This document shows positions 24,841 through 31,233 of a stretch of DNA of 32,000 bases, one piece after another; within the stretch, counting starts at the first letter, position 1, and each line of letters starts with the position of its first letter. A program made the position numbers and the translations under genes. The notes under the pieces were generated by a model that saw only the letters and a list, made by a program, of their open reading frames with translations, did not search any database and had not been told where the DNA came from. Location: positions 2,430,001 to 2,462,000 of the forward strand of contig NC_002937.3 of NCBI RefSeq assembly GCF_000195755.1. The letters are read 5' to 3'. This DNA comes from Nitratidesulfovibrio vulgaris str. Hildenborough. GTDB taxonomy: Bacteria; Desulfobacterota; Desulfovibrionia; Desulfovibrionales; Desulfovibrionaceae.

Positions 24841-24875
24841 GAAAAGCCCCCCGTGTGGAACGCACGGGGGGCTTG
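24841..24875 (-). terminator. Rho-independent terminator downstream of the HDOD gene (could also serve the convergent permease gene)
   Basis: AAGCCCCCCGTG (24845-24856) pairs with CACGGGGGGCTT (24864-24875). On the minus strand the stem runs into CTTTTCTG. Confidence 0.55.
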
Positions 24876-24999: not shown

Positions 25000-26109
25000 C
25001 TAGTCGCCCTGCAGCAGGCGGCTGAGGGCCTGACTCTGCTCGACCAGACCATTGGTCATGGCTGCGATGTCGTGCCCCGAAAGTCCGAGGGTATCGACGG
25101 CATCAAGGTCGAGGGGGGCGATGCGCGCATCCAGTGCCCCGCCGATACCCATCCCCTTGACCACCGCGTCGGCTATATGCACTTCGAGTGCCCCATCGAC
25201 CGGCGGATTGTCACCCACGGTAGCCAGAGGGGCATGGTGGGAACGCACCACGTCGATGAGGAACGCAGGGAGATTCCACGTCTTCAGCACGGTGGCGCCG
25301 AGTTCGGCATGGGTCGTGCCAAGTTCGAGGCGCTCGGCCTCTTCGCAGGAACAACCGGTGGACTGGATGCGCCGCACGATGCGTTCCGCCCTGTCGGGCG
25401 CGGCCGAACACAGGGCAAGCCAGCCCATGTCATGCAGCAACCCCGCCACGAAGAACCGTTCCGGGTCGCTACGCCCAAGGCGCTGCGCCAAAAGACGCGC
25501 CGCGATGCCACATCCGACAGAATGCAGCCAGAAGCCCTGGATGTCGACCACGAGAGGCGGGCGTTCCCGGTAGAGGCCCAGCACGAACGTGCCGAGGGCC
25601 AATGCGGAGACACGGCGTATGCCTGAAGCCGCCACGGCACGGGACACCGTCTCGATGGGGGTGGAGAAGCCGAAATGAGGGCTGTTGACCAGCTTGAGAA
25701 GCGACGCGGTGAGACGCGGGTCCTTGCTCACGATGGCGGCTATCCGCTCATACGAGACATGCGGCTGCCCCAGCGCGTTCTGAAGTTCCATGAAAAGTTG
25801 CGGAAGCGCAGGAATGCGCAGATGATCCACATCAAGTGGCACGGGCGGGGCATCTGGGTCATCGGCGACATCGGGAAGCCCCGCGGTATCGAGGGCAGCC
25901 ACTTGCGTGAACAGTGGCGGGCCGCCCGGGGGGGGCAGATTGTCGCGCTGCCGCACCATCATGTCTTCCACGGCATGGCGGGCAAGCAGGTTGAGCAGTG
26001 GATGCCGCACGCCCACGAGCGAAAAACGGGCAGCCACGGCCTCCTGTGCCTGTTCCTGCAGCAACCTTTGAGCCGTGCCCGAATCGGGGTCAGCCTGACG
26101 CAGGTTCAT
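25000..26109 (-). CDS. Stand-alone HDOD-domain signalling protein with ~110-aa N-terminal extension
   Basis: 369 aa. HDOD pattern LPALPQLFMELQNAL...IAAIVSKDPRLTASLLKLVNSPHFGF...TVSRAV...G, then LLHDMG and HAELGATVL. GAAGGAGG SD 7 nt before the ATG. Confidence 0.85.
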   Translation of the reverse strand: MNLRQADPDSGTAQRLLQEQAQEAVAARFSLVGVRHPLLNLLARHAVEDMMVRQRDNLPPPGGPPLFTQVAALDTAGLPDVADDPDAPPVPLDVDHLRIPALPQLFMELQNALGQPHVSYERIAAIVSKDPRLTASLLKLVNSPHFGFSTPIETVSRAVAASGIRRVSALALGTFVLGLYRERPPLVVDIQGFWLHSVGCGIAARLLAQRLGRSDPERFFVAGLLHDMGWLALCSAAPDRAERIVRRIQSTGCSCEEAERLELGTTHAELGATVLKTWNLPAFLIDVVRSHHAPLATVGDNPPVDGALEVHIADAVVKGMGIGGALDARIAPLDLDAVDTLGLSGHDIAAMTNGLVEQSQALSRLLQGD

Positions 26110-26128
26110 GCGGTGCCTCCTTCATGAC

Positions 26129-26158
26129 ATTGTAACGGCATTATGCCAAATGCGTAAA
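26129..26158 (-). promoter_or_regulatory. Possible sigma70-type promoter of the HDOD gene (TTTACG-N18-TACAAT) enclosing an 11-bp palindrome
   Basis: On the minus strand TTTACG is at 26158-26153 and TACAAT at 26134-26129. GGCATTATGCC (26137-26147) lies in the spacer. Sequence match only. Confidence 0.3.
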
Positions 26159-26386
26159 GGCGGCAAGCACATTGAGGTGCAGGAGGCGGGATGCGCGGCG
26201 CAGGCAACCCTGTACATCCGAAGCTGGCAGCACCCGGTGCTGTCAGACAAGGCTACAGGACAGGCACGTCGGATTTGAACACCGCTTCCACGGTCACGCC
26301 GCCGCCCATGAATAAGGCAATCGGTACATGGGTTGGCACACGGCAAACTCGAGTACGAGAAATGCCTAGAATAACAGCACGGTTCG

Positions 26387-26511
26387 AAAAAACGGCAGAA
26401 CCCCGACGAGGGGAGCGCCGGGGTTCTTACGGAATGAAGCGACTGAATCTTCAATCCACATGCGAGGGATCACGCGGATTGCACACCGAAAAGAGCGGTT
26501 AACCGTTCTTT
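26387..26511 (-). ncRNA. Candidate sigma54-dependent small RNA (~125 nt), unnamed
   Basis: Bounded by the predicted TSS (~26511, 12 nt after the -12 GC) and an intrinsic terminator. The terminator is AGAACCCCG (26427-26419) paired with CGGGGTTCT (26405-26397), then GCCG and TTTTTT (26392-26387). There is no SD-preceded ORF inside. Three predicted stem-loops. Confidence 0.45.
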
Positions 26512-26521
26512 CAGCCTTATA

Positions 26522-26537
26522 AGCAAGGGGTGTGCCA
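26522..26537 (-). promoter_or_regulatory. sigma54 (RpoN) -24/-12 promoter, exact consensus
   Basis: The minus strand reads TGGCAC(26537-26532)-ACCCC-TTGCT(26526-22), i.e. GG-N10-GC with full TGGCAC and TTGCW elements. It lies 118 bp from the start codon of a divergent sigma54 activator gene. Confidence 0.7.
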
Positions 26538-26601
26538 AGAAGCACCGCACACGCAGACGGCCTCAGCACTGCCTTTACGGAGAACGCACCACATCTTGAC
26601 A

Positions 26602-26631
26602 TTGACGACATGTCGTCATTAGCGATATATC
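26602..26631 (+). promoter_or_regulatory. Possible sigma70-type promoter of the EBP gene (TTGACG-N18-TATATC), overlapping the palindromes
   Basis: TTGACG 26602-26607, TATATC 26626-26631. The GGAG SD is at 26648-26651 and the ATG at 26656. Sequence match only. Confidence 0.3.
26603..26618. promoter_or_regulatory. Perfect 16-bp palindrome TGACGACATGTCGTCA; candidate enhancer (UAS) for the adjacent EBP
   Basis: Read directly. The centre is ~100 bp upstream of the predicted sigma54 TSS and ~45 bp upstream of the EBP start codon. A second perfect palindrome, CGATATATCG, lies at 26623-26632. Confidence 0.45.
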
Positions 26632-26655
26632 GTTACGAAATTTCGCGGAGAAACC

Positions 26656-28311
26656 ATGCTCCAACCCGGAAAATTCACACGCATCGCCCCGCATGTACTG
26701 CGCGAGTTCGACATCTCGCCCTTCTTCGACCTGTTGCTCAGCATGGCGCAAGAGCGCACCGTCGAAGGGCTGCTGCAACTCAGCACACGCGTCTACCGTG
26801 GCACGCATGTGGCCTGTGGCGGCGTATGGTTCACCGAGAAGGCCTCCGGCGACGACGGCGCGGGATGGGTGATGCGCCTCATGACCCTTGCGGGACGTAC
26901 ACACAGGCATCCTCGCACATGGACGCACACGGCAGGCGACTACTCGCTCATCCCCCCGCAGGAACCGCTTCTGGGGGCCGTGGCGTTGAGCGGCGAACCT
27001 CTGGTCGTCGCGTCCCCCGATGAATGGACGCGCCCGGAATGGGCCGTCGACGAAGGGTTCGCCGCCTATTCGGCCTTTCCCATGATGTGCAAGGGTGAAC
27101 TCGTGGGACTGCTCGCCCTCTTCTACGAGCGCCCCATGACGGACAGGCTGGGCGACCTGCTGTCCCTTCACTACAAGATGCACAAGATATATGCCGACTC
27201 GCTGGCAGCCGCCATCACCAATGCACGCGCCTTCGAGGAGATTCTGCACCTGCGCCGTGAACTCGAACGCGAGAACGAACGGTTGCGCCGTCAGGTCGAG
27301 CATGGAAGCGCAGACGGCAACCTGCCCATCGTGGGCGACTGCCCCGCATGGCTTCGCGTTCTGGCGCAGGTGGACATGGTGGCACCTACCGACGCCACAG
27401 TGCTGGTGCAGGGCGAATCGGGCACAGGCAAGGAGCTTGTGGCTGAAGCCATCCACCGACGCAGTCAGCGTTCCACAGCCCCACTTGTGCGCGTCAACTG
27501 TTCCGCCATCCCCCGCGAACTGTTCGAGAGCGAGTTCTTCGGCCACGTCAAAGGGGCCTTCACCGGGGCTGTGCGCGACCGCATAGGCCGTTTCCAGATG
27601 GCCGACGGTGGCACGCTGTTCCTCGACGAAGTGGGCGAGATTCCGCTTGAACTCCAGGGCAAACTCCTGCGCGTCCTGCAGGAGGGCACCTTCGAACGCG
27701 TCGGTGAAGACAGGACCCGCAGCGTCGACGTACGCATCATCGCCGCCACCAACCGTGACCTCCGGCAGGAGGTGGACGCCGGAAGGTTCAGGCAGGACCT
27801 GTTCTTTCGCCTTAGCGTCTTTCCGGTGGAATTGCCGCCCCTGCGCGACCGCCAGGGAGACATTCCGCTGCTGGCGCGCCACTTCATCGCCCAGTCCAGC
27901 CGCCGTCTCGGCCTGCCCACCCCCCGCCTCACCCCGGCAGCGCTGGCACGCCTTTCAGCCTATCCGTGGCCCGGAAACGTGCGCGAGATGCAGAACGTCA
28001 TCGAACGCGCCGTCATCATGGCAGAAGAGGGAGCGCTCGGCATGGATGCACTCCCCGCCCCCGAAGGGCTGCGGCACGACGACAGGGTGTCTGTCGCCGC
28101 CCCGGCACCCGGCGCGACGACCATCGTCACCGAAGAGGAGTGGCGCACCATGCAGCGCGACAATATCAGGCGCGCCCTGCAAGCCGCCGAAGGACGCGTG
28201 CATGGCGTGGGGGGGGCCGCTGAACTGCTTGGCATACCGCCGACCACGCTGCGTTCGCGAATGCAGGCGCTGGGGCTGTCTCCGAAACAGGGGCACGGCC
28301 CGAAAGGCTAG
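26656..28311 (+). CDS. sigma54-dependent transcriptional activator (bEBP): N-terminal GAF sensor, AAA+ sigma54-interaction domain, C-terminal Fis-type HTH
   Basis: 551 aa. GAF-like region up to ~aa 190. Walker A GESGTGKE, the sigma54-contact loop [23 protein letters not shown]-type ([10 protein letters not shown]), and the [30 protein letters not shown]. Confidence 0.9.
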
Positions 28312-28414: not shown

Positions 28415-29221
28415 ATGTCCGACACCCCGCCCATCATGCAGCCCGATGACACGCCAGACGAAACGTCCGGCGCGACGCACGACATCCCGGCAGATGAAGC
28501 CTTCGTCGTCGCCATCATCGCCGAAGACGCCGAAACGACGACCATCGTCATCGAACCCGCCAGCGCACAACGCCTGAAGGCGTTCCAGCCGGGGCAATTC
28601 GCCACGTTGCGCATCCTCGATGATGACGGCTGGAGTGTGCCCCACCCGTTCACGCTCTCCGGCGCACCGCATCAGGGGGTGCGACTGACCGTGCGCCACA
28701 GGGGCCATTTCACTTCGCAAGGAATTCCTCGACTCAGACCCGGCGACGCCATCAAATGCGCGGGGCCGTATGGCGTGTTCTGCCGCGACATCGCCGCCAA
28801 GGAAGACATCGTCCTCATCGCGGGGGGGATGGGCATCACTCCGTTCCTCAGCGTGTTGCGCCATTTCGCCCGTACGGGTGCGGACAACCGCATCACCCTC
28901 TTCTGGGCCAACCGCAACTTCGCCGGGGCCTTCGCCGCAGACGAACTTGCCGGCCTCACCCGCGCCCTGAACCTTCGCGTCGTCCATGTCCTCAGCCGCG
29001 AGACGAACCCAGACCTCAACAGCGACCCGGCGTTCCCTGCCGTGGCCTTCGAAAAAGGTCACATCGACAGTGACGTGGTGCAACGACACGTACCCCACGC
29101 CGCAACGGCGTCGTTCTACCTGTGTGCCCCGGCGGAGATGCGCCGTGCCGTGCTGGCGGAGTTGCAAGCCTGCGGTGTGGACATGTCGTGCGTGGAGTCG
29201 GAGGACTACACCTTCGCGTGA
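28415..29221 (+). CDS. FNR-like oxidoreductase (FAD-binding FR-type domain + NAD(P)-binding domain), no extra cofactor domain
   Basis: 268 aa from the ATG at 28415 (GAGGAG SD). FQPGQFATLRI, HPFTLS (RxYS-type flavin motif), LIAGGMGITPF (NAD(P) motif). The N-terminal ~30 aa are acidic. The long track ORF 27608..29221 overlaps the EBP gene upstream of this ATG and is discounted. Confidence 0.8.
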   Translation: MSDTPPIMQPDDTPDETSGATHDIPADEAFVVAIIAEDAETTTIVIEPASAQRLKAFQPGQFATLRILDDDGWSVPHPFTLSGAPHQGVRLTVRHRGHFTSQGIPRLRPGDAIKCAGPYGVFCRDIAAKEDIVLIAGGMGITPFLSVLRHFARTGADNRITLFWANRNFAGAFAADELAGLTRALNLRVVHVLSRETNPDLNSDPAFPAVAFEKGHIDSDVVQRHVPHAATASFYLCAPAEMRRAVLAELQACGVDMSCVESEDYTFA

Positions 29222-29444: not shown

Positions 29445-30104
29445 TCAGATGCGAACAGGCACCCGCACCTCATCCACCACAGCGCGCAATGCACGGGTAG
29501 CCGCAAGCGGGTCGGCTGCGCCGCATATGGCCGAGACCACGGCGATGCCCTCGGCCCCGGCATGCAGCACTTCAGCGGCATTGACCGGGCCGATGCCACC
29601 TATCCCCACAAGGACGTGACGTGTCATGCGCCGCAGGCCGCACAGCCCCGCAACGCCCCACGGGGGCGCGGCATCGGGCTTCGTCGCCGTGGCGAAGACG
29701 GGGCTTACGCCAAGATAGTCCACCGGGGCATGTTCCGCTGCCTTCGCCTGCGCCGGGGTCTCCACTGAAAGGCCCACGATGGCATCCGGCCCCATCAGCG
29801 CCCGCACGTCACCAACGTGCATGTCTGACTGCCCCACATGCACCCCGTCGGCGCCGGCAGCCAAAGCCACATCGACCCTGTCGTTGATGAGCAAGGGGAT
29901 GCCGCGGGGACGCAGCAACGCCACCAGCGCACGGGCACGGTCGACGAAAGCCCGCGTGGGCGTGGCCTTCTCGCGCAGTTGCACGATGCCGACCCCGCCG
30001 GAGATGGCCGCGGTCACGACCTCATGCAGGCGGGCGTCGGTCAGCCCGGCGTCGGTCACGAGGTACAGCCCGTAGTCCACCGCGGCCTTGCGCACCCGTG
30101 TCAT
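29445..30104 (-). CDS. thiE: Thiamine-phosphate synthase
   Basis: 219 aa: LYLVTD, VQLREK, LLINDRVDVALAAGADGVHVGQSD, YLGVSPVFATATK, VGIGGI. The ATG overlaps the thiM stop (ATGA at 30101-30104). The track ORF extension to 30935 is a different frame of thiM. Confidence 0.9.
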   Translation of the reverse strand: MTRVRKAAVDYGLYLVTDAGLTDARLHEVVTAAISGGVGIVQLREKATPTRAFVDRARALVALLRPRGIPLLINDRVDVALAAGADGVHVGQSDMHVGDVRALMGPDAIVGLSVETPAQAKAAEHAPVDYLGVSPVFATATKPDAAPPWGVAGLCGLRRMTRHVLVGIGGIGPVNAAEVLHAGAEGIAVVSAICGAADPLAATRALRAVVDEVRVPVRI

Positions 30105-30904
30105 GCGCGCACCACTTCGACCTCGTCGCGCACCGTGACGAGGTCGAGGGAGTGAAGGACGTCGAGAAACGCCACCTGGAACGAACCCGGCCCCTGCGAC
30201 CGGCGCGCGGCCAGTGCCCCGGCGGCAGACATGGCCGCCATACCCGTGACGGCCCCTTCCAGCACGTCGGCGGCGACAGCCACATGTGCCGCCACCAGCA
30301 CGGTCGCCGTACAGCCCATGCCCGTCACGCGTGGCATCAGCGGACTGCCACCACGCACAAGCCACAGCGCATCGCCATCGGTCACCACGTCCTCGGCACC
30401 ACTGACCACGACCACGGCACCATAGCGACGTGCCAGTGCCCGCCCCCCGTCGACGGCCTCGTGCGCGGTGCGTGCACTGTCCACGCCTCGGGTGTCTCCG
30501 GCGGCCCCTGCCAGCGCGAGAATCTCCGACCCGTTGCCCCGCACCACGGCCGGACGCACCTTCTCCAGTATCTCCAGTGCCGTGGTCGTGCGCAGACTGC
30601 TGGCCCCCGCACCCACAGGGTCGAGTACCACAGGCAACCTGCGTTCGCGCGCGGCCATGCCCGCCAGCATCATGCTTTCCACCCACGGCTTCGTGAGCGT
30701 GCCGATGTTCAGGACGAGGGCCGAGGCGATGCCCGCCATCTCGGCCATCTCTTCGGGGGCATGGGCCATGATGGGCGACGCACCGGCGGCCAGCAGCGCA
30801 TTGGCCGTGGTGTTCATGACCACGAAGTTGGTGATGCTGTGGATGATGGGCGCACGTTGCCGCACTGCCGCGACGTTCTTCCACACCGTACCTGTCGAAA
30901 ACAT
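30101..30904 (-). CDS. thiM: Hydroxyethylthiazole kinase
   Basis: 267 aa: IHSITNFVVMNTTANALLAAGASPIMA, LVLNIGTL, VVLDPVGAGAS, VRGNGSEI, MPRVTGMGCT. GAGGAGG SD 6 nt before the ATG. Confidence 0.9.
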   Translation of the reverse strand: MFSTGTVWKNVAAVRQRAPIIHSITNFVVMNTTANALLAAGASPIMAHAPEEMAEMAGIASALVLNIGTLTKPWVESMMLAGMAARERRLPVVLDPVGAGASSLRTTTALEILEKVRPAVVRGNGSEILALAGAAGDTRGVDSARTAHEAVDGGRALARRYGAVVVVSGAEDVVTDGDALWLVRGGSPLMPRVTGMGCTATVLVAAHVAVAADVLEGAVTGMAAMSAAGALAARRSQGPGSFQVAFLDVLHSLDLVTVRDEVEVVRA

Positions 30905-31233
30905 GGGGTCCCTCCTCAGATGACAATGGCATCATAAAGGATAGCCATGTCGGTTTCCTGCGTCCATATCCTGCGAGGCAGGTCTTGTAGCCCTGTATCA
31001 GACAGACGTCCTGCCGGGCGCCGTCTGCGACAATGGGCGCGGCAACAACAGTCCCTCGTCATGCCCCGTAAGGTGTCGGGCTTCGAACCGCCGAGGCATG
31101 ACGCGGCCCTGCGGCTTCCGGTGAACCAGCGACACGACCAGCCTACGGCAAAGGGCCGGGATGAACCCGGCCCTGATCATGCTACGATACCCTTCCGCCC
31201 CGGCAAACCGGGGACGATGCACCGGACGGCATG

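What the first reader, a model, noticed from the sequence alone, without database searches (positions are those of the whole stretch)
26387..26537. Orphan consensus sigma54 promoter plus intrinsic terminator predict a ~125-nt EBP-dependent small RNA divergent from its activator gene
On the minus strand 26537-26522 reads TGGCAC-ACCCC-TTGCT, an exact -24/-12 element (GG-N10-GC). No protein gene follows it. The next minus-strand CDS (HDOD, ATG 26109) is ~400 nt away and has its own strong SD and a plausible own TTTACG-N18-TACAAT promoter. About 85-125 nt downstream of the predicted TSS (~26511) lies a textbook intrinsic terminator: AGAACCCCG / 13-nt loop / CGGGGTTCT, then GCCG and TTTTTT (26431-26387). 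The RNA in between folds by eye into three hairpins: 5' AGAACGG-TTAA-CCGCTCT, a stem of 8 bp or more (CAATCCGC/GTGGATTG), and the terminator. The promoter lies 118 bp from the start codon of a GAF-type sigma54 activator, with a perfect palindrome at enhancer distance. The downstream FNR-like gene has no convincing sigma54 promoter, so this is the only credible sigma54 target in the window. An alternative reading is that the terminator is an attenuator in a long sigma54-driven leader of the HDOD gene. I cannot tell from here whether this element has already been catalogued in published sigma54-regulon surveys.
Basis: partly seen in the sequence, partly recalled or inferred. Interest (0 to 1): 0.75.

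Follow-up and report, generated by a model that had tools for sequence, protein, structure and literature searches.

The report
Catalogued sigma54-dependent small RNA, Desulfovibrio
The promoter and terminator mark a real, structured ~125-nt small RNA gene switched on by the neighbouring activator protein, but this exact locus was already listed in the 2015 sigma-54 regulon survey of Desulfovibrio vulgaris Hildenborough; its function is still unknown.

Summary
The window is the D. vulgaris Hildenborough chromosome (window coordinate + 2,430,000). Kazakov et al. 2015 (PMC4641369) list this 19-mer promoter (CTTGGCACACCCCTTGCTT, position 2456539) as 'ncRNA upstream of DVU2357'. They name DVU2359, the GAF-type activator at 26656-28311, as its regulator and give three binding sites that match the window exactly.

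New here:
- I found 13 distinct orthologous loci across Desulfovibrionaceae (Nitratidesulfovibrio, Oleidesulfovibrio, Halodesulfovibrio and D. subterraneus; several are unnamed assemblies).
- All 13 keep the GG-N10-GC promoter. Most keep enhancer sites at fixed positions (-110/-97/-80).
- All keep a three-hairpin RNA with strong covariation: 94.6% of cells paired, 25 of 31 pairs with compensatory changes.
- Three single-stranded elements are conserved: two C-rich loops (UCCCUC, CCCCU) and an invariant 15-nt linker (UUCAGUCGCUUCAUU).
- Four lineages lack the downstream HDOD gene but keep the RNA, so it is not merely an HDOD leader.
- It matches no Rfam family, has no conserved ORF and occurs once per locus.

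Most likely it is a trans-acting regulatory RNA and the only predicted output of a one-component sensor-activator. Its targets and signal are unknown. Expression and sigma54/DVU2359 dependence could not be checked here.

The parts
26633..26648 (.). Enhancer (UAS) site 1 for the activator DVU2359: CCGCGAAATTTCGTAA. It ends 8 nt from the activator's ATG and covers its GGAG ribosome-binding site.
   Evidence: Exact match to the site listed at -539 from DVU2357 in Kazakov 2015 Additional file 4. An equivalent site lies near -110 from the promoter in 10 of the 13 orthologs.
26620..26635 (.). Enhancer site 2: TAACGATATATCGCTA.
   Evidence: Exact match to the published site at -526. Conserved near -97 from the promoter in 12 of the 13 orthologs; in L084 the sites lie at -121/-108 instead.
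26603..26618 (.). Enhancer site 3: TGACGACATGTCGTCA, a perfect 16-nt palindrome.
   Evidence: Exact match to the published site at -509. Conserved near -80 in 12 of the 13 orthologs. It is the only 0-mismatch ACGA-N4-TCGT in the window.
26521..26539 (-). Sigma54 (-24/-12) promoter CTTGGCACACCCCTTGCTT; GG at 26536-26535 and GC at 26524-26523.
   Evidence: Only exact TGGCAC-N5-TTGC in the window (0.09 expected). Identical to the 19-mer listed at genome position 2456539 as 'ncRNA upstream of DVU2357'. GG-N10-GC is kept in all 13 orthologs.
26387..26511 (-). Predicted small RNA, about 125 nt. The start at 26511 is inferred as 12 nt after the -12 GC. The 3' end is taken as the end of the T-run.
   Evidence: Covariance model hit at 26384-26512, 157 bits, one copy in the window. 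Folds with z = -4.2 to -4.8. No Rfam match. No conserved ORF.
26490..26511 (-). Hairpin 1 (AAAGAACGG-UUAA-CCGCUCUUU). Variable in sequence and absent in the L092/L099/L001 lineage.
   Evidence: 7 of 8 pairs show changes on both sides; 93% of cells paired. Absent in three orthologs.
26452..26481 (-). Hairpin 2: an 11-bp stem presenting the conserved loop AUCCCUCG (26463-26470). UCCCUC is invariant.
   Evidence: 8 of 11 pairs show changes on both sides. The loop is invariant in alignment A1 and sits at the apex in four independent single-sequence folds.
26433..26447 (-). Invariant single-stranded linker UUCAGUCGCUUCAUU; candidate seed or protein-binding site.
   Evidence: Identical in all 13 orthologs although the activator protein is only 54-78% identical. 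Unpaired in every fold.
26397..26427 (-). Terminator hairpin: a 12-bp stem with the conserved C-rich loop CUCCCCU (26409-26415).
   Evidence: Terminator scan. 10 of 12 pairs show changes on both sides and 99.4% of cells are paired. The helix is also recovered on the unfitted MAFFT alignment.
26387..26396 (-). 3' tail GCCGUUUUUU.
   Evidence: The U-run is imperfect in several orthologs, for example GCCGUUAUGG in L081.
26656..28311 (+). Cognate activator DVU2359: a one-component enhancer-binding protein (GAF sensor, sigma54-AAA+ domain with GAFTGA, HTH_8), transcribed divergently.
   Evidence: Pfam and NCBIfam scans. GAFTGA present, and the DNA-binding domain is identical to the published DVU2359 sequence. 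It always flanks the RNA.
25000..26109 (-). HDOD-domain gene DVU2357, 278 nt downstream of the RNA's 3' end. A frequent neighbour but not an obligatory one; possible read-through target.
   Evidence: Pfam HDOD, E = 6e-67. It has its own sigma70-like TTTACG-N18-TACAAT at 26158-26129. Present downstream in 9 lineages and absent in 4.

Best explanation
This is the gene for a free-standing small regulatory RNA of about 125 nt. It is the one previously listed as 'ncRNA upstream of DVU2357' in D. vulgaris Hildenborough.

Proposed mechanism:
1. The one-component activator DVU2359 senses an unknown cytoplasmic signal through its GAF domain.
2. It binds three tandem ACGA-N4-TCGT palindromes held at about -110/-97/-80 from the promoter.
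3. It uses ATP to open the sigma54 promoter at 26537-26523.
4. Transcription starts near 26511 and stops at the hairpin and U-run at 26427-26387.

The RNA has three hairpins and displays three conserved unpaired elements: the loop UCCCUC, the terminator loop CCCCU and an invariant 15-nt linker UUCAGUCGCUUCAUU.

The most likely action is in trans, by base-pairing with mRNAs. The C-rich loops could occlude G-rich ribosome-binding sites, and the linker could act as a longer seed or as a chaperone-binding platform.

Shown here: the sequence features, the identity with the catalogued locus, the co-conservation of enhancer, promoter and RNA, the structure covariation, and independence from the HDOD gene.

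Inferred: the start site, sigma54 and DVU2359 dependence in vivo, trans action, base-pairing through these motifs, and the signal.
For: Identity with the published entry:
- The promoter 19-mer and its coordinate match (2456539 = window 26539 + 2,430,000). The three binding sites have identical offsets from the HDOD start. The DVU2359 DNA-binding domain is identical.

Promoter:
- It is the only exact match in the window, against 0.09 expected.

Conservation:
- There are 13 distinct orthologs. GG-N10-GC is kept in all of them. Enhancer sites lie at -110/-97/-80 (+-3) in 10 of them, and the two proximal sites in 12.
- The covariance model finds exactly one copy beside each Desulfovibrionaceae DVU2359 ortholog (51-157 bits).
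- It finds none in the 78 fetched loci with more distant homologs (L003-L080), nor in L100 and L101.

Structure:
- 94.6% of cells are paired and 25 of 31 pairs have double changes. 0 of 500 shuffles reach any measure, and slid controls give 41-53% paired.
- The same three hairpins appear in independent folds of four divergent members.
- The terminator helix covaries on an unfitted alignment.

Independence from HDOD:
- L083, L084, L093 and L002 have a convergent transporter or aminotransferase gene downstream instead of HDOD.

Not coding:
- Frames differ and stop codons occur among orthologs.
Against: - No expression data could be read. Price et al. 2011, the source of the 5' RNA-seq and tiling data, is not in the held library.
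- The DVU2359 assignment in Kazakov 2015 is itself comparative-genomic, with no binding assay for this protein.
- No target was found. Translation-initiation regions of ten genes in the window pair with the three motifs no better than background. The rest of the genome was not available.
- The U-tract is weak in several orthologs, so termination may be leaky.
- The HDOD gene lies on the same strand only about 55-70 nt beyond the hairpin in G20 and D. subterraneus, so read-through is plausible.
- The covariation counts come from an alignment fitted to the model's structure, which favours that structure.
Confidence: 0.8

Rival explanations
1. The element is a sigma54-driven 5' leader or attenuator of the HDOD gene DVU2357. 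The hairpin would be a conditional terminator, and the biologically relevant product would be HDOD mRNA.
For: - The RNA and HDOD lie on the same strand and are adjacent in 9 of 13 lineages.
- In G20 and D. subterraneus the HDOD start is only about 55-70 nt past the hairpin.
- U-tracts are imperfect in several orthologs.
- Kazakov's site table gives positions relative to DVU2357.
Against: - The RNA, promoter and enhancer are fully retained in four lineages where a convergent gene follows instead of HDOD.
- In this window 278 nt and a sigma70-like promoter separate the RNA from the HDOD ATG.
- The strongest conservation is in unpaired loops and the linker, not in any alternative anti-terminator pairing.
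Confidence: 0.1
2. The RNA acts by binding or sequestering a protein rather than by base-pairing with mRNAs. The invariant 15-nt linker and the C-rich loops would be protein recognition sites.
For: - The linker is invariant over 15 nt across genera, which is stricter than many base-pairing seeds.
- No local target was found.
Against: - GGA occurs only twice in the window RNA (positions 56-58 and 59-61 of the strand shown), both in the 3' arm of hairpin 2, and neither in a loop or in the linker. It is therefore not Csr/Rsm-like.
- No partner protein is indicated by the gene context beyond the activator, the HDOD protein and an oxidoreductase.
- No Rfam protein-binding RNA family matched.
Confidence: 0.15
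3. The transcript encodes a small protein.
For: Mechanical ORFs overlap it (26366-26611 and 26122-26454 on the minus strand). There is an AUG inside hairpin 2.
Against: - The 81-aa ORF starts upstream of the predicted transcription start.
- No start codon or reading frame is conserved, and orthologs carry stop codons and non-triplet indels.
- The substitution pattern is compensatory in stems.
- The ORFs have no Pfam hit.
Confidence: 0.02

Closest known systems
'ncRNA upstream of DVU2357' in the DVU2359 regulon, from Kazakov et al. 2015, BMC Genomics 16:919 (PMC4641369)
   Same: It is the same locus. The promoter 19-mer and its genome coordinate are identical. So are the three binding sites, their offsets and the regulator's DNA-binding domain.
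   Different: - The paper gives only the promoter, the regulator and the sites, for two genomes (Hildenborough and Miyazaki F).
- It gives no RNA boundaries, terminator, structure, conserved motifs or wider distribution.
- It reports no binding assay for DVU2359.
Other sigma54-dependent ncRNAs of D. vulgaris Hildenborough: downstream of DVU0653, downstream of DVU0679 (Dv_sRNA2), and upstream of DVU3282 (DVU1419 regulon)
   Same: These are sRNA genes with a sigma54 promoter, placed next to or under the control of a dedicated enhancer-binding protein in the same organism.
   Different: Their activators are two-component response regulators, whereas DVU2359 is a one-component GAF sensor. Sequence homology to those RNAs could not be tested, because their loci lie outside the window.
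Qrr sRNAs with LuxO (Vibrio)
   Same: A sigma54 promoter, an enhancer-binding protein encoded next to the sRNA gene, a multi-hairpin RNA with a conserved unpaired region, and a Rho-independent terminator. This comparison rests on general knowledge; see also PMC10162802.
   Different: - LuxO is a phosphorylated response regulator, not a GAF one-component protein.
- No Rfam family, Qrr included, matched this RNA.
- The phylum differs.
- Qrr targets are known; here they are unknown.
GlmY/GlmZ with GlrR (Enterobacteriaceae), and the sigma54-dependent sRNAs CrcZ/CbrB and Pxr (Myxococcus)
   Same: The general design is an sRNA as the main or only output of a sigma54 activator (general knowledge; PMC3045617 and PMC5568312 are listed).
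   Different: There is no sequence or structure similarity detectable by Rfam models. Their activators are response regulators.
sRNAs with C-rich loops that target ribosome-binding sites (for example RsaE/RoxS in Firmicutes)
   Same: Two apical loops carry C-runs (UCCCUC and CCCCU) that could pair with G-rich Shine-Dalgarno sequences. This is a resemblance drawn from general knowledge.
   Different: There is no homology. Pairing with any ribosome-binding site is untested, and neighbouring genes gave no signal.

Membership tests
Sigma54-dependent promoter | GG at -24 and GC at -12 separated by exactly 10 nt, within a TGGCAC-N5-TTGC-like consensus | tested here: met
   TGGCACACCCCTTGC at 26537-26523. 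It is the only exact match in the window, against 0.09 expected.
Sigma54-dependent promoter | Conservation of the -24/-12 elements at orthologous loci | tested here: met
   GG-N10-GC is kept in all 13 orthologs while the spacer varies.
Sigma54-dependent promoter | An enhancer-binding protein with an intact GAFTGA loop, and upstream activator sites about 80-150 bp away | tested here: met
   GAFTGA is present in the adjacent activator. Three palindromic sites lie at -109/-96/-79 from the promoter.
Sigma54-dependent promoter | Transcription start about 12 nt after the GC, and loss of the transcript in rpoN or activator mutants | not testable with these tools
   No transcriptome data are available. 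Price et al. 2011 is not held.
Catalogued 'ncRNA upstream of DVU2357' (Kazakov 2015) | Identical promoter sequence, coordinate, regulator and binding sites | tested here: met
   All four published strings and the DNA-binding domain are found exactly, with matching offsets.
Trans-acting base-pairing sRNA | A discrete short transcript with its own promoter and an intrinsic terminator | tested here: inconclusive
   The promoter and the hairpin with U6 are present in this window. The U-tract is imperfect in several orthologs. The transcript itself was not observed.
Trans-acting base-pairing sRNA | A conserved, accessible single-stranded seed | tested here: met
   The invariant linker UUCAGUCGCUUCAUU and the loops UCCCUC and CCCCU are unpaired in all folds.
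Trans-acting base-pairing sRNA | Complementarity to identified target mRNAs | tested here: inconclusive
   Only ten translation-initiation regions in the window could be scored, and none beats background. There is no second site complementary to the linker in the window.
Trans-acting base-pairing sRNA | Dependence on an RNA chaperone (Hfq or ProQ) | not testable with these tools
   This needs co-immunoprecipitation or stability assays.
Any Rfam 15 family (including Qrr, GlmY/GlmZ and other sigma54-dependent sRNAs) | A score at or above the family's gathering threshold | tested here: not met
   There are no hits at gathering thresholds in the whole window. The best sub-threshold hit is FsrA at 25 bits against a threshold of 80, and it is driven by the terminator hairpin.
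Csr/Rsm-type protein-sequestering sRNA | Multiple GGA motifs exposed in loops or single-stranded regions | tested here: not met
   GGA occurs only twice in the 125-nt sequence (positions 56-58 and 59-61), both in the 3' arm of hairpin 2. The loops are C-rich.
Cis-acting 5' leader or attenuator of the HDOD gene | The regulated gene always lies downstream on the same strand | tested here: not met
   HDOD is absent downstream in L083, L084, L093 and L002, while the RNA is retained.
NorR-type NO-sensing activator (for DVU2359) | Full-length match above the NCBIfam NorR cut-off, including the iron-binding GAF domain | tested here: not met
   384 bits against a cut-off of 476, with only residues 176-539 aligned, which are the AAA+ and HTH parts. 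The N-terminal domain has only weak GAF similarity (E = 0.007 to a histidine-kinase GAF domain).

The most novel reading that the evidence does not exclude
The RNA may be the founding member of an undescribed sRNA family restricted to Desulfovibrionaceae and absent from Rfam. It would be the sole output of a one-component cytoplasmic sensor-activator: ligand, then GAF activator, then sigma54, then sRNA, with no kinase involved. It would regulate a set of mRNAs through two ribosome-binding-site-mimicking C-rich loops and an invariant 15-nt seed. On this reading the rigidly fixed enhancer geometry and the frequently linked HDOD and oxidoreductase genes point to a redox or small-molecule stress circuit in sulfate reducers.
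Probability: 0.4. Interest if true: 0.45.

Novelty: already known. Interest (0 to 1): 0.3.

Why it matters
The finding itself repeats an entry in a published regulon catalogue, so it adds little as a discovery.

The remaining value is practical. The RNA has no name, no Rfam model, no published boundaries or structure, and no known target or signal. This analysis supplies:
- its boundaries;
- a three-hairpin structure supported by covariation;
- a 13-member alignment;
- candidate seed motifs;
- evidence that the RNA, not the HDOD gene, is the conserved partner of the activator.

That makes it a well-defined candidate for genetics in a model sulfate reducer. It is also an example of a one-component (non-phosphorelay) sigma54 activator that appears to be dedicated to a riboregulator.

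Tried and rejected
- Rfam at gathering and at permissive thresholds gave nothing meaningful. The FsrA, rnk-leader and miRNA hits are terminator or hairpin look-alikes far below threshold.
It returned mostly distant paralogs (Acidobacteriota, Planctomycetota and others) and not the source genome. Only L001 and L002 were useful.
- The metagenome pattern scan gave 6 hits. Four were real and all lay beside the activator. Two (L097, L098) were chance matches with no promoter or hairpins.
- RNAalifold on plain MAFFT alignments misaligned hairpin 2 because of 1-nt register shifts. I replaced this with a covariance-model alignment.
- Full-length RNAduplex target scoring was uninformative, because it ignores intramolecular structure.
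- Seed-only scoring against ten translation-initiation regions in the window showed nothing above background.
- I tested a small-ORF reading and a conserved antisense ORF between the RNA and HDOD, and rejected both.
- The NorR assignment for the activator was rejected.
- A possible link to a 2026 preprint on a nitrite-responsive RNA locus was checked. That paper cites Desulfovibrio only in its reference list.
- A G20 ncRNA prediction paper does not cover this element.
- My first coordinate for the oxidoreductase start (28416) was off by one; the correct start is 28415.

Full report
**1. The observation**

On the minus strand, 26537-26523 reads TGGCACACCCCTTGC. This is the only exact TGGCAC-N5-TTGC in the 32-kb window, where 0.09 matches are expected from dinucleotide shuffles. 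With one mismatch allowed the count is no more than chance.

A terminator-like hairpin lies at 26427-26397. It has 12 pairs, 8 of them G-C, and a 7-nt loop, and it is followed by GCCGTTTTTT.

The RNA between the predicted start (26511, which is 12 nt after the -12 GC) and the T-run folds into three hairpins. The z-score is -4.2 to -4.8 against shuffles.

The divergent gene at 26656-28311 encodes a GAF + sigma54-AAA+ + HTH_8 protein with an intact GAFTGA motif. The next minus-strand gene (25000-26109) encodes an HDOD protein and has a sigma70-like TTTACG-N18-TACAAT of its own.

The gene after the activator (28415-29221) is a ferredoxin-NADP-reductase-like FAD/NAD oxidoreductase, not an Fnr/CRP regulator.

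**2. What the window is, and prior knowledge**

Homologs of the activator pointed to Desulfovibrionaceae.

The sigma54 regulome paper for D. vulgaris Hildenborough (Kazakov et al. 2015, PMC4641369) lists DVU2359 in its Table 1. It is described as a single-component regulator whose target is an 'ncRNA upstream of DVU2357'.

- Additional file 6 gives the promoter as CTTGGCACACCCCTTGCTT at absolute position 2456539.
- Additional file 4 gives three DVU2359 sites: CCGCGAAATTTCGTAA, TAACGATATATCGCTA and TGACGACATGTCGTCA. They lie at -539, -526 and -509 from DVU2357.
- Additional file 2 gives the DNA-binding domain of DVU2359.

All of these strings occur exactly in the window. The promoter is at 26539-26521. 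The sites are at 26648-26633, 26635-26620 and 26618-26603, with the same offsets from the HDOD start codon. The protein segment is identical.

The window is therefore this chromosome with an offset of 2,430,000, and the finding is the published entry.

The published assignment is comparative-genomic and covers Hildenborough and Miyazaki F only. DVU2359 appears only in Table 1 and in the Methods, and no binding assay is reported for it. No other paper in the held library mentions DVU2357 to DVU2359. The paper with the 5' RNA-seq and tiling data (Price et al. 2011) is not held.

**3. Comparative anatomy (new here)**

I collected 13 distinct orthologous loci from contigs that encode activator homologs of 54-78% identity, from two genome hits and from a metagenome pattern scan. 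They comprise:
- Hildenborough;
- L081, L083, L084 and L090;
- the Nitratidesulfovibrio loci L086 and L091;
- Oleidesulfovibrio alaskensis, L088;
- D. subterraneus L092 and the related L099;
- Halodesulfovibrio, L001 and L002;
- L093.

All 13 keep GG-N10-GC.

The ACGA-N4-TCGT sites sit at nearly fixed positions relative to the promoter. They lie at about -110/-97/-80 in 10 loci, and the two proximal sites are present in 12.

A covariance model was built from four members, with the three helices given as its structure. It finds exactly one copy next to each of these activators, at 51-157 bits. It finds nothing in the other 78 fetched loci that carry more distant homologs. With filters off, it also finds nothing in L100, L101, L004, L033 or the rest of the window.

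On the resulting alignment:
- 94.6% of cells form standard pairs.
- 25 of 31 pairs show changes on both sides.
- 0 of 500 shuffles reach any of the five measures.
- Sliding the partners by 1-3 columns drops pairing to 41-53%.

That alignment is fitted to the model, which favours the structure. Two independent checks agree with it. Single-sequence folds of four divergent members give the same hairpins. The terminator helix also covaries on an unfitted MAFFT alignment.

Hairpin 1 is missing in the L092/L099/L001 lineage, so the core is hairpin 2, the linker and the terminator.

The most conserved positions are unpaired: UCCCUC in the loop of hairpin 2, CCCCU in the terminator loop, and the 15-nt linker UUCAGUCGCUUCAUU. 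The linker is identical in all members.

**4. Rival readings**

*Leader of the HDOD gene.* HDOD follows on the same strand in nine lineages. In G20 and D. subterraneus it starts only about 55-70 nt past the hairpin. Several U-tracts are poor. Read-through is therefore plausible.

However, in L083 and L084 a convergent CitMHS_2 transporter gene follows the RNA. In L093 and L002 a convergent aminotransferase gene follows it. The enhancer, promoter and RNA are intact in all four. The conserved unit is the activator plus the RNA.

*Small protein.* No start codon or frame is conserved, and stop codons occur.

*Csr-like sponge.* The RNA contains only two GGA triplets, both in a stem.

*Known RNA family.* No Rfam family matches.

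*Chance.* The co-conservation rules this out.

**5. Mechanism**

Best-supported reading: an unknown signal acts on the GAF domain of DVU2359. The activator binds the three palindromes and opens the sigma54 promoter. A ~125-nt RNA is made and acts in trans.

The two C-rich loops are complementary to G-rich Shine-Dalgarno-like sequences (GAGGG, GAGGGG). The linker could be a long seed or a chaperone-binding site. These steps are inference.

The translation-initiation regions of ten genes in the window, including the activator, HDOD and the oxidoreductase, pair no better than background. The rest of the genome could not be searched.

The activator is not NorR. It scores 384 bits against a cut-off of 476, with only the AAA+ and HTH parts aligned. 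Its N-terminal domain has only weak GAF similarity. The signal remains unknown.

Enhancer site 1 ends 8 nt from the activator's ATG and covers its GGAG. This suggests autoregulation, again by inference.

**6. Comparison and verdict**

In design this resembles Qrr/LuxO, GlmY/GlmZ with GlrR, and the three other sigma54-dependent ncRNAs of this organism. The difference is that the activator is a one-component GAF protein rather than a response regulator.

As a locus it is already known. As an RNA it is uncharacterised and absent from Rfam.

- Interest: 0.3.
- Confidence that it is an independent, structured, activator-linked sRNA gene: about 0.8.
- Confidence that it works by base-pairing through the conserved motifs: about 0.5.

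Noticed in passing
window 26603-26648, with the orthologs: The three activator sites keep almost identical positions relative to the promoter (about -110/-97/-80, spacing 13 and 17 bp) across genera whose activator proteins are only 54-78% identical. This implies a rigid enhancer-promoter geometry.
   Followed up: partly
window 26633-26656: Enhancer site 1 ends 8 nt before the activator's ATG and overlaps its GGAG ribosome-binding site on the + strand. Binding may therefore also autoregulate DVU2359.
   Followed up: no
L092:2742-2859, L099:2219-2331, L001:3665-3786: The D. subterraneus / Halodesulfovibrio sp. version of the RNA lacks hairpin 1 and the UCGGUG spacer. Its 5' part reads AAUUCAAAGGAUUU instead.
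   Followed up: partly
window 28415-29221 and orthologous loci (L081, L086, L090, L091, L092): A ferredoxin-NADP-reductase-like FAD/NAD oxidoreductase follows the activator on the same strand in most lineages, after a gap of about 100 nt with no predicted terminator. It may be co-transcribed and related to the unknown signal.
   Followed up: no
window 24841-24874: A GC-rich hairpin scores as terminator-like on both strands. It lies between the convergent CitMHS_2 transporter gene (ends 24704) and the HDOD gene (ends 25000) and is probably a shared bidirectional terminator.
   Followed up: no
L090:2654-2676: A second, 87% GC hairpin resembling the terminator stem lies about 45 nt downstream of the RNA in this ortholog (E = 0.008). 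It could be a back-up terminator.
   Followed up: no
L101:365-3537: Two paralogous GAF-type sigma54 activators lie in tandem in a Deltaproteobacteria MAG. The covariance model finds no copy of the RNA there.
   Followed up: partly
window 29445-30935 (minus strand): The 496-aa mechanical ORF is an artefact of an open upstream frame. Only its C-terminal ~210 residues match ThiE (TMP-TENI). Orthologous loci have separate ThiE (~218 aa) and ThiM-like (~267 aa; window 30101-30904) genes.
   Followed up: partly
It did not return the source genome or its close relatives. Orthologs had to be recovered through exact-protein look-ups instead.
   Followed up: yes
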